NCBI RefSeq assembly: GCF_003334305.1
Contig: NZ_QOWS01000081.1
From: Escherichia coli
Lineage (GTDB): Bacteria; Pseudomonadota; Gammaproteobacteria; Enterobacterales; Enterobacteriaceae
DNA length: 378 bases
Direction: 5' to 3' (one strand)
Under the pieces are notes generated by a model, which worked only from the letters and a program-made list of their open reading frames with translations, ran no database searches and had not been told where the DNA came from. Each line of letters begins with the position of its first letter. Position 1 is the first letter of the stretch. The translations under genes and the position numbers were made by a program. Positions 1-378 of the stretch are shown here, piece after piece.

Positions 1-378
1 CGCCTCCCCCGGCAGCAGCGGCTCAAAGTGAATGCTCCGCCCGCCGTTGTCGTTGAGTACCAGTGCATCATCGCGTAGCTGTAAGCGGATATCAGAAGGC
101 GCTTTCCAGCCGGGGCCAAACACTCCCACCGGCGCGGGTGTCCTGGTCCGGTAGCTGCTGTAGGTGCGGGAGAGAATGAACGGCAGCGGGCCGGGCAGCG
201 CAAGGTCCGTCTCGCCGGGCAGCACCTTCGCCCCCAGCAGCGGATTTACCGGGTTGCCCGAAGTCATCCCGCCCGGACACACCGAGCACGCCACGCCGGT
301 GGGCGCGCCAATTCTTACACCTGCCGAACCCTGGACAATGGGACCGCCATACTGAGTCATATCTCCCTGACGCGCCGC
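1..378 (-). CDS. rhs: Rhs-family polymorphic toxin protein, N-terminal portion (PAAR-like domain plus linker); partial at both ends, true start just beyond position 378, gene continues beyond position 1
   Basis: Seen in sequence: the reverse complement read in phase from position 378 gives 126 sense codons and no stop. The translation begins AARQGDMTQYGGPIVQGSAGVRIGAPTGVACSVCPGG, which from memory matches the conserved N-terminus of E. coli-type Rhs proteins (MSGKPAARQGDMTQYGG...), followed by the Pro/Gly-rich stretch LPGETDLALPGPLPFILSRTYSSYRTRTPAPVGVFGPGWKAPSDIRLQLRDD. GC3 in this frame is about 73% by hand count, consistent with a genuine reading frame. The paralog (rhsA/B/C/D-like) cannot be resolved from 378 nt, so only a family-level symbol is given. 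Confidence 0.9.
220..378 (-). other. Region encoding a PAAR-like domain (PAAR_RHS type) at the N-terminus of the Rhs protein; boundaries approximate, and the first residues of the PAAR motif lie outside the window
   Basis: The translation shows the pattern (P)AARxGD...GGPIVQGSxxVRIGxPxxG...C-x-x-C, which resembles the PAARxGD / GSxxVxIGG signature of PAAR repeat proteins. Established knowledge: many Rhs proteins carry an N-terminal PAAR-like domain. The domain end was placed by eye, not by HMM. Confidence 0.55.

What the first reader, a model, noticed from the sequence alone, without database searches (positions are those of the whole stretch)
1..378. High GC (about 66%) and strong GC3 bias, consistent with a horizontally acquired Rhs core
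By hand count the window has about 249 G+C out of 378 (roughly 66%), and third codon positions in the coding frame are about 73% G/C. Rhs core regions are known to be markedly more GC-rich than typical enterobacterial chromosomes (about 50-52%), which has been taken as evidence of foreign origin. If the host is an enterobacterium, this window is compositionally atypical.
Basis: partly seen in the sequence, partly recalled or inferred. Interest (0 to 1): 0.3.

Follow-up and report, generated by a model that had tools for sequence, protein, structure and literature searches.

The report
GC-rich start of E. coli Rhs toxin gene
The window is the start of a well-known E. coli Rhs toxin gene, read on the opposite strand, and it really is far more GC-rich than E. 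coli DNA; this has been known for decades, and about two thirds of the excess in this stretch comes from a glycine- and proline-rich protein, not from foreign codon usage.

Summary
In detail: 249/378 G+C (65.9%). GC3 is 73.0% in the only open frame, which lies on the minus strand.

The window is 100% identical to nt 16-393 of the RHS element core gene in many E. coli genomes. All three exact hits I inspected sit at the rhsE locus (yncH-vgrG-rhs-ydcD-ISAs1-pptA).

It encodes the PAAR-like N-terminal fragment, a predicted N47|P48 cleavage site and the DUF6531 N-terminal plug of a T6SS polymorphic toxin.

Only 20 of 148,869 E. coli background windows are as GC-rich.

Two caveats apply. About 70% of this window's excess is amino-acid-driven (GC2 0.56; Gly 15%, Pro 12%). 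GC3 of 0.73 is reached by 6% of ordinary E. coli windows.

The stronger evidence is at whole-core level: GC3 0.77 against 0.59 expected, and an outlying tetranucleotide signature.

The homologous segment exceeds its flanks in 38/38 loci from other Enterobacterales but matches them in Paracidovorax/Acidovorax. Foreign origin is therefore plausible but not proven. A GC-richness maintained within the family remains a live rival.

This is already known and of low interest.

The parts
1..378 (-). Codons 6-131 of an E. coli RHS element core ORF of the RhsD/E subfamily, most likely the intact rhsE element. This is the only open frame in the window.
   Evidence: Frame analysis. 100% identity to nt 16-393 of the gene at L001 19986-24209. 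NCBIfam NF041261 positions 6-131, E = 4e-81.
253..378 (-). Residues 6-47 of the short PAAR-like N-terminal fragment. The full protein starts MSGKPAARQGD..., so the literal PAAR motif is cut by the window edge. This fragment is presumed to be the part that mounts the effector on VgrG.
   Evidence: N-terminal sequence. There is only a weak, non-significant Pfam PAAR_motif hit at residues 3-20 (E = 0.16). The role is assigned by analogy with the 47-residue Tse5-NT PAAR-like fragment (PMC10684867) and is an inference.
250..255 (-). Predicted N-terminal autoproteolysis site N47|P48 (codons AAC CCG), followed by P-V-N-P-L-L-G-A-K.
   Evidence: The Tse5 shell chain 8cp6_B begins with PVNPMLGSK, which aligns to window residues 43-51. 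Tse5 is cleaved between K47 and P48. The site here is predicted by homology only and was not tested.
25..258 (-). DUF6531, the N-terminal plug domain that closes the Rhs YD-repeat shell.
   Evidence: Pfam PF20148, window residues 41-118, E = 5e-20; the same domain lies at residues 46-123 of the full protein. DUF6531 is equated with the N-terminal plug in the Tse5 structure paper.

Best explanation
Shown:
- The window is the reverse complement of nt 16-393 of an E. coli Rhs core gene of the RhsD/E subfamily.
- All three exact matches I inspected lie in the intact rhsE element, between yncH and pptA. The element is ordered vgrG, rhs, ydcD, then ISAs1/H-repeat copies.
- The parent gene has the full Rhs architecture: short PAAR-like N-terminus, DUF6531 plug, YD-repeat shell, DPxG(x18)DPxG aspartyl-protease motif and a variable AT-rich tip (DUF6973).

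Inferred from established T6SS-Rhs biology:
- The protein rides on the VgrG spike.
- The shell encloses the C-terminal toxin, which is released by autoproteolysis.
- YdcD, whose gene overlaps the rhs stop, is the cognate immunity protein.

Why the window is 66% GC. There are two additive causes.
1. The encoded segment is Gly/Pro-rich (15% and 12%), which forces GC2 to 0.56. This is conserved in every homologue whatever the host, and it accounts for about 70% of the window's excess.
2. Synonymous sites are GC-shifted (GC3 0.73 here, 0.77 over the core). That level is typical of DNA of about 58-60% GC.

For the second component, the most likely explanation is the classical one. The conserved core belongs to a mobile VgrG-Rhs module whose composition was set outside E. 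coli and which is exchanged among enteric bacteria, so it has not equilibrated to the host. The AT-rich tip and immunity cassette come from a different gene pool and are swapped by recombination at the core/tip junction.
For: Identity:
- The window is 100% identical in E. coli genomes (>=99% in 1174 records); 3872 of 5426 genomes hold a copy, with a median of 3 places per genome.
- RHS_core scores 2777 bits against a cut-off of 2000; VgrG and YdcD_fam are also recognised.
- Pfam finds DUF6531, at least 10 RHS_repeat hits, RHS and DUF6973.

Composition:
- The window is 0.659 GC against flanks of 0.50.
- Expected GC with E. coli codon usage is 0.618 for the window. For the core it is 0.579, with expected GC3 0.588, against observed 0.643 and 0.773.
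- CAI is 0.326 for the window (8th percentile) and 0.366 for the core (26th percentile), against 0.684 for ribosomal/EF genes. The GC3 shift is therefore not expression-linked codon adaptation.
- The core's tetranucleotide and dinucleotide signatures lie outside all 117 background 3.6-kb chunks: 0.386 against a maximum of 0.225, correlation 0.524 against a minimum of 0.812, and 0.144 against a maximum of 0.074.
- The element is a mosaic: core 0.61-0.69, last 600 nt 0.42-0.48, ydcD 0.273, vgrG 0.558.
- It is bordered by ISAs1 copies and is 5'-deleted in K-12.

Cross-species:
- In Paracidovorax/Acidovorax the segment's GC (0.709) equals its flanks (0.694).
- In 38/38 Enterobacterales loci it exceeds the flanks, by +0.10 on average, and shows no correlation with host GC within the order.

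Literature: the G+C-rich core and A+T-rich tip are described, and the title of Wang, Zhao & Hill 1998 states that the subfamilies diverged before acquisition by E. coli.
Against: - Composition alone cannot show transfer. Most of this window's excess is protein-determined.
- The excess is universal across about 15 enteric genera. Jackson et al. 2009 conclude that rhs is ancient in Enterobacteriaceae, with most lineages predating the family. If so, a gene resident for that long should have drifted toward host composition unless something maintains its GC.
- Polarised substitutions on the E. coli lineage show no clear net GC loss: S>W 44 against W>S 42 at all positions, and 28 against 18 at third positions. 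This test is low-powered and is confounded by gene conversion between paralogues.
- No integrase or tRNA boundary appears in the annotation of the 40-kb locus.
- I did not test phylogenetic incongruence.
Confidence: 0.6

Rival explanations
1. GC-richness maintained within the family. The Rhs core is an old resident of enteric genomes, and its GC3 is kept high by an ongoing process. One candidate is GC-biased gene conversion among the multiple near-identical core copies, since Rhs elements are 'rearrangement hot spots'. The other is selection on the DNA or mRNA. Under this view high GC is not a relic of foreign origin.
For: - The excess over flanks is found in 38/38 Enterobacterales loci from about 15 genera and is uncorrelated with host GC.
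- E. coli genomes that hold the segment have a median of 3 places.
- High GC is confined to the conserved, recombining core and stops where the unique tip begins. Conversion limited to homologous sequence predicts exactly this.
- The E. coli lineage shows S>W roughly equal to W>S (44 against 42) and no clear decay.
- Jackson et al. [quoted passage not shown]
Against: - There is no visible relation between the number of loci per genome in the scan and core GC3. Trabulsiella odontotermitis has 4 loci at about 0.68, while the single-locus Buttiauxella brennerae is at 0.775.
- The tetranucleotide signature is also deviant, not only GC3.
- The element is patchily distributed (71% of genomes) and linked to IS elements.
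- The third-position count of 28 against 18 is compatible with decay.
- I made no direct test of biased conversion.
Confidence: 0.25
2. The high GC is purely a by-product of amino-acid composition (Gly, Pro, Arg, Ala codons) and says nothing about origin.
For: - In this window GC2 is the most deviant position (z = +3.4).
- The same peptide encoded with ordinary E. coli codons would be 0.618 GC, about 70% of the excess.
- GC2 is constant at 0.50-0.57 in all homologues, whatever the host.
Against: - The remaining roughly 30% of the window's excess is synonymous.
- Over the core, composition explains only about 45% of the excess (expected 0.579 against observed 0.643).
- Core GC3 is 0.773 against 0.588 expected, above every one of the 131 background genes.
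Confidence: 0.06
3. The composition is unremarkable because the host genome is itself about 65% GC.
For: Homologues exist in about 70% GC Paracidovorax/Acidovorax, where the segment does match its flanks.
Against: Those homologues are only 60-64% identical at the protein level. The window itself is 100% identical at the nucleotide level in E. coli chromosomes, whose flanks are 0.50 GC.
Confidence: 0.01
4. The GC3 bias reflects translational selection for preferred codons in a highly expressed gene.
For: None beyond the raw GC3 value.
Against: CAI, with weights from 30 ribosomal-protein, rpoA and elongation-factor genes, is 0.326 for the window (8th percentile of ordinary genes) and 0.366 for the core. 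The reference set averages 0.684. Re-encoding the peptide with highly-expressed-gene codon usage would lower GC3 to 0.544.
Confidence: 0.01

Closest known systems
E. coli K-12 RhsD (b0497) and the rhsE element (b1456, a pseudogene in K-12)
   Same: - Same subfamily. The window is 96.8% identical to K-12 rhsD nt 16-393, and the cores are 98.6% identical.
- The strain C gene carries the RhsE tip (148/149 residues) and the same downstream ydcD.
- Core composition is the same: 0.640 GC and GC3 0.766 in rhsD.
   Different: - K-12 rhsE lacks this segment altogether. Relative to strain C, K-12 is deleted for about 4.5 kb covering vgrG and the first 2.2 kb of the core.
- The RhsD tip is unrelated (30/168 residues).
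- RefSeq/PGAP labels the intact rhsE-locus gene 'rhsD' in several genomes.
E. coli K-12 RhsA/B/C (the RhsABCF subfamily)
   Same: Same architecture and the same compositional pattern, with cores at about 0.62 GC and GC3 about 0.73.
   Different: Only 80-81% nucleotide identity over the window, so this is a different subfamily.
Pseudomonas aeruginosa Tse5 (PDB 8cp6; PMC10684867)
   Same: - Same N-terminal layout: a fragment of about 47 residues, then P-V-N-P...
- Same DUF6531 plug (E = 1e-10, window residues 43-124 aligned to chain residues 1-79).
- Cleavage at K47|P48 aligns with N47|P48 here.
   Different: - The relationship is distant.
- The residue before the scissile bond differs (Asn rather than Lys).
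- Cleavage of the E. coli protein has not been tested.
- The host is GC-rich (own knowledge, not measured here), so the gene would not be expected to stand out compositionally there.
Serratia marcescens Db11 clade II rhs (SMA1610), as described by Jackson et al. 2009
   Same: The core is much more GC-rich than the tip (67.7% against 46.4%), with an AT-rich trough extending downstream. This is the same mosaic seen here (core 0.64, tip about 0.45, ydcD 0.27).
   Different: A different Rhs clade and a more GC-rich host. It also carries arrays of dissociated tips downstream, which that paper says are generally absent at E. coli clade I loci.

Membership tests
RHS element core protein (NCBIfam NF041261, equivalog) | The whole protein scores above the curated cut-off of 2000 bits. 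| tested here: met
   The parent gene L001:19986-24206 scores 2777.4 bits over profile positions 1-1261. The window alone gives 273 bits over positions 6-131.
RHS element core protein | Tandem YD/RHS repeats forming the shell. | tested here: met
   There are 10 Pfam RHS_repeat hits with E <= 0.001 in residues 320-678, and TIGR01643 also matches. None of the repeats lies inside the window itself.
RHS element core protein | An N-terminal plug domain (DUF6531) following a short N-terminal fragment. | tested here: met
   PF20148, E = 5e-20, window residues 41-118. Homology to the Tse5 shell N-terminus supports it.
RHS element core protein | A C-terminal aspartyl-protease motif (DPxG x18 DPxG / PxxxxDPxGL) marking the core/tip junction. 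| tested here: met
   DPIG...DPMG begins at residue 1232 and PIQVIDPMGL at residue 1249 of the parent protein. TIGR03696 matches residues 1181-1258. These lie outside the window.
RHS element core protein | A GC-rich core joined to an AT-rich variable tip, followed by a small downstream ORF. | tested here: met
   300-nt bins run at 0.61-0.69 GC up to nt 3600, then 0.48 and 0.42. ydcD is 0.273 GC and overlaps the rhs stop by 17 nt.
T6SS-delivered PAAR-Rhs effector | Genetic linkage to vgrG. | tested here: met
   VgrG (TIGR03361, 614 bits) ends 66 nt upstream of rhs in strains C, ECCHD184 and 720632.
T6SS-delivered PAAR-Rhs effector | A recognisable PAAR domain at the N-terminus. | tested here: inconclusive
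   The literal K-P-A-A-R is at residues 4-8, but the Pfam PAAR_motif hit is only E = 0.16 over 18 residues. The fragment is too short for a full PAAR fold. The Tse5 authors call the equivalent fragment 'PAAR-like'.
T6SS-delivered PAAR-Rhs effector | T6SS-dependent secretion, toxicity of the tip, and neutralisation by the downstream immunity protein. | not testable with these tools
   This requires competition and secretion assays.
Horizontally acquired genomic island (compositional and contextual criteria) | GC and oligonucleotide signature deviate from the host. | tested here: met
   Window 0.659 and core 0.643 against 0.50-0.52 for the host. Tetranucleotide and dinucleotide distances lie outside all 117 background chunks. 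Caveat: part of the deviation is driven by the protein sequence and its repeats.
Horizontally acquired genomic island | Codon usage poorly adapted to the host. | tested here: inconclusive
   CAI is at the 8th percentile for the window and the 26th for the core. That is low but within the range of native genes.
Horizontally acquired genomic island | Patchy distribution within the species and association with mobility genes. | tested here: met
   The segment is present in 3872 of 5426 complete E. coli genomes. ISAs1/H-repeat transposase genes lie immediately downstream. The K-12 copy is partly deleted.
Horizontally acquired genomic island | The gene phylogeny is incongruent with the species phylogeny, or a donor lineage is identified. 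| not tested
   I made only composition comparisons across 64 loci. No tree reconciliation was done.

The most novel reading that the evidence does not exclude
The GC3 excess of this Rhs core clade is seen in every enteric host examined, is independent of host GC, and is confined to the recombining conserved core. It may therefore be no fossil of foreign origin. It could instead be actively maintained, for example by GC-biased gene conversion among paralogous cores. That would make Rhs cores a natural multi-copy reporter of biased gene conversion in Enterobacterales.
Probability: 0.2. Interest if true: 0.4.

Novelty: already known. Interest (0 to 1): 0.1.

Why it matters
It matters little as a discovery. 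The GC-rich core and AT-rich tip of E. coli Rhs elements have been textbook material since the 1990s, and the gene is correctly annotated in thousands of genomes.

The useful outcome is methodological. For a short window, total GC can greatly overstate how foreign a sequence is when the encoded peptide is Gly/Pro-rich. Here GC2, not GC3, is the most deviant codon position.

The cross-genus comparison also sharpens an old disagreement between 'acquired' and 'ancient resident' into a testable question: is the core's GC3 decaying in enteric hosts, or is it being maintained?

Tried and rejected
1. A calibration of GC3 against DNA GC using stop-to-stop ORFs in the flanks gave a slope of 0.65 and absurd implied values (0.70-0.76). 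I discarded it.
2. A version using non-overlapping longest ORFs validated on K-12 (0.567-0.617 against the true 0.588). It gave implausibly low GC3 (0.76) for the roughly 70% GC Paracidovorax flanks, probably from shadow ORFs. I used only the Enterobacterales genus means (slope 2.1).
3. Polarised substitution counts, meant to detect decay toward host composition, were inconclusive: 44 against 42 at all positions and 28 against 18 at third positions. The outgroups are paralogues from the same genome (23% divergent) and gene conversion is likely.
4. Wang, Zhao & Hill 1998 (PMC107404) is not held. I could cite only its title, through Jackson 2009's reference list.
5. PMC6730261 contained nothing on Rhs core GC.
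6. There are no Chi sites in the window or the core.
7. I initially recalled that the strain C tip was the RhsD tip. That was wrong: it is the RhsE tip.
8. Codon adaptation as a cause of the high GC3 is rejected.
9. I did not use the large protein-database searches, structure prediction or RNA tools. The identity was unambiguous without them.

Full report
**Observation.** The window contains C133, G116, A69 and T60, so G+C = 249/378 = 65.9%. Only one of the six reading frames is open throughout: minus strand, frame 1. In that frame GC1, GC2 and GC3 are 0.683, 0.563 and 0.730. The numbers in the finding are therefore right, but the coding strand is the reverse complement of the window as given.

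**What the sequence is.** A megablast of the window against 5,426 complete E. coli genomes finds it in 3,872 of them, with a median of 3 places per genome. 1,174 records are >=99% identical, many of them 100%, and the matches lie under genes annotated 'RHS element core protein' or 'rhsD'.

In E. coli strain C the window is nt 16-393 (codons 6-131) of a 4,224-nt gene. That gene scores 2,777 bits against the NCBIfam equivalog RHS_core, whose cut-off is 2,000. The window's peptide alone gives E = 4e-81 over profile positions 6-131.

All three 100% hits whose context I inspected have the same order: yncH - vgrG - rhs - ydcD - ISAs1/H-repeat - pptA. This is the rhsE locus. The C-terminal tip is 148/149 identical to the K-12 RhsE tip and unrelated to the RhsD tip, even though PGAP names the gene 'rhsD' in several genomes.

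K-12's own rhsE is a 5'-deleted relic. It lacks about 4.5 kb covering vgrG and the first 2.2 kb of the core, including this segment. In K-12 the window's best match is rhsD at 96.8%, against about 80% for rhsA/B/C.

**What the window encodes.**
- Pfam places DUF6531 at window residues 41-118 (E = 5e-20).
- A search of PDB sequences finds P. aeruginosa Tse5 (8cp6_B, E = 1e-10). Its shell chain begins PVNPMLGSK, aligned to PVNPLLGAK at window residue 43.
- The Tse5 structure paper shows autocleavage at K47|P48. It yields a 47-residue PAAR-like N-terminal fragment anchored by the DUF6531 'N-terminal plug' at residues 48-124 (PMC10684867).
- By homology, the window therefore encodes residues 6-47 of the PAAR-like fragment, a predicted N47|P48 cleavage site, and the N-terminal plug. 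The full protein begins MSGKPAARQGD.
- The PAAR assignment itself is weak in Pfam (E = 0.16).

The rest of the gene has at least 10 RHS repeats, the PF03527/TIGR03696 core-associated domain, DPIG(x18)DPMG and PIQVIDPMGL motifs at residues 1232-1258, and a DUF6973 tip. VgrG lies 66 nt upstream, and ydcD overlaps the rhs stop codon by 17 nt.

The mechanism is inferred from the established T6SS-Rhs literature and was not tested here. The effector is mounted on VgrG, the YD-repeat shell encloses the toxin tip, autoproteolysis releases it, and YdcD is the presumed immunity protein.

**Is the composition atypical for the host?** Yes.
- The 30 kb of the same locus outside the element is 0.501 GC, and no 378-nt window there exceeds 0.598.
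- In 150 kb of K-12 sampled at three arbitrary positions, GC is 0.518 overall. The 131 annotated genes average 0.526 +/- 0.042.
- Only 20 of 148,869 windows there reach 0.6587, all in the phn operon.

**How much of the excess is foreign codon usage?** Less than the headline suggests.
- The most deviant codon position in the window is the second (z = +3.4), not the third (z = +1.9).
- The peptide is 15% Gly and 12% Pro, against 7.2% and 4.5% in the background.
- Encoding it with ordinary E. coli codon frequencies would already give 0.618 GC. About 70% of the excess is thus dictated by the protein.
- GC3 >= 0.730 occurs in 5.9% of in-frame 126-codon windows of ordinary genes.

The stronger signal comes from the core taken as a whole (nt 1-3600).
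- GC is 0.643 against 0.579 expected. GC3 is 0.773 against 0.588 expected, above all 131 background genes.
- CAI is low: 0.326 for the window (8th percentile) and 0.366 for the core (26th percentile), against 0.684 for ribosomal/EF genes. The GC3 shift is therefore not translational selection.
- The core's tetranucleotide and dinucleotide signatures lie outside every one of 117 background 3.6-kb chunks. Its repetitive, compositionally skewed protein contributes to that.
- The element is a mosaic: vgrG 0.558, core 0.61-0.69, last 600 nt 0.42-0.48, ydcD 0.273.

**Cross-species test.** One scan of a collection with one genome per species returned 64 loci.
- In 38 Enterobacterales loci with at least 3 kb of distant flank (about 15 genera; flank GC 0.43-0.61), the homologous segment averages 0.633 GC. 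It exceeds its own flanks in 38/38 cases, by +0.10 on average, and shows no correlation with host GC within the order.
- In five Paracidovorax/Acidovorax loci (60-64% protein identity) the segment is 0.709 GC against flanks of 0.694, which is essentially native.
- GC2 is constant at 0.50-0.57 everywhere, whereas GC3 ranges from 0.55 to 0.93.
- Using Enterobacterales genus means only, ordinary flanking genes reach GC3 of 0.773 at about 0.60 DNA GC, and 0.730 at about 0.58. The synonymous composition thus points to a background of about 58-60% GC, not 66%.
- Calibrations that included the high-GC loci were unreliable and are discarded.

**Interpretation.** These data fit the classical Hill-laboratory view that the core's composition was set outside E. 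coli. The title of Wang et al. [quoted passage not shown] The GC-rich core and AT-rich tip are described in PMC2935791.

They fit almost equally well a GC-richness maintained within a family that Jackson et al. [quoted passage not shown] One candidate process is GC-biased conversion among the multiple core copies. That would explain why high GC stops exactly where the unique tip begins.

A polarised substitution count could not separate the two. On the E. coli lineage S>W against W>S is 44:42 at all positions and 28:18 at third positions. About 70% S>W would be expected under decay toward E. coli's GC3. Power is low and paralogue conversion confounds the test.

I put about 0.6 on the acquired, laterally exchanged module explanation and about 0.25 on the maintained-GC explanation. 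'Pure amino-acid artefact', 'GC-rich host' and 'codon adaptation' are each refuted as complete explanations.

**Verdict.** The identification as an Rhs core and the compositional atypicality are correct. The step from this window's GC to horizontal acquisition is only partly supported. The phenomenon is already known, so interest is low.

Noticed in passing
L001 19986-24209 (E. coli C); also L075 and L076: RefSeq/PGAP names this gene 'rhsD', but it lies at the rhsE locus (yncH...ydcD-pptA). It carries the RhsE tip (148/149 identical to the K-12 rhsE tip, against 30/168 for the RhsD tip). The name seems to follow the nearly identical core, not the locus or the toxin tip.
   Followed up: yes
L007 9891-11939 (K-12 rhsE) compared with L001 17726-22193: The K-12 rhsE pseudogene is a deletion derivative of the intact element seen in strain C. 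About 4.5 kb is missing, covering vgrG and the first 2.2 kb of the core. The flanks on either side of the deletion are 99-100% identical.
   Followed up: yes
L011, L040, L051, L066: Short contigs assigned to Lentisphaerae, Collinsella, Oscillospiraceae and Akkermansia metagenome-assembled genomes carry this enterobacterial rhs segment at 75-100% protein identity. L011 is 100% identical. These are almost certainly mis-binned Enterobacteriaceae contigs, not real occurrences in those phyla.
   Followed up: partly
L057, L058, L061-L063, L067 (Paracidovorax/Acidovorax); L068-L073 (Azoarcus MAGs); L064, L065, L074 (Chromatiales MAG): The same N-terminal module (51-64% protein identity over about 125 residues) occurs in high-GC Betaproteobacteria and Gammaproteobacteria. 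In Comamonadaceae its GC equals that of the flanks. This is a lead on the kind of genome in which this composition is native, but it does not identify a donor.
   Followed up: partly
L001 24193-24675 (ydcD) and 24590-24775 (yncO): ydcD is the presumed immunity gene. It is 27% GC, overlaps the rhs stop codon by 17 nt, and is itself overlapped on the opposite strand by the small ORF yncO. In strain ECCHD184 ydcD is annotated as frameshifted while the rhs gene is intact (L075).
   Followed up: no
L055 and L056 (Citrobacter amalonaticus): Two of the five loci in this genome have the reading frame interrupted 126 nt after the start of the match. The tblastn E-values are also weaker despite 88-89% identity. 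These are probably frameshifted or pseudogenised rhs copies.
   Followed up: no
L010 about 14899-18550 (K-12 phnP-phnL): The only 378-nt windows in the 150 kb of K-12 background that reach the window's GC (>= 0.659) all fall in the phn (carbon-phosphorus lyase) operon.
   Followed up: no
L001 17793-19919 (vgrG): The linked vgrG is compositionally intermediate (GC 0.558, GC3 0.684). Its tetranucleotide signature is also deviant (distance 0.280, correlation 0.681). The atypical block therefore extends upstream of rhs.
   Followed up: partly
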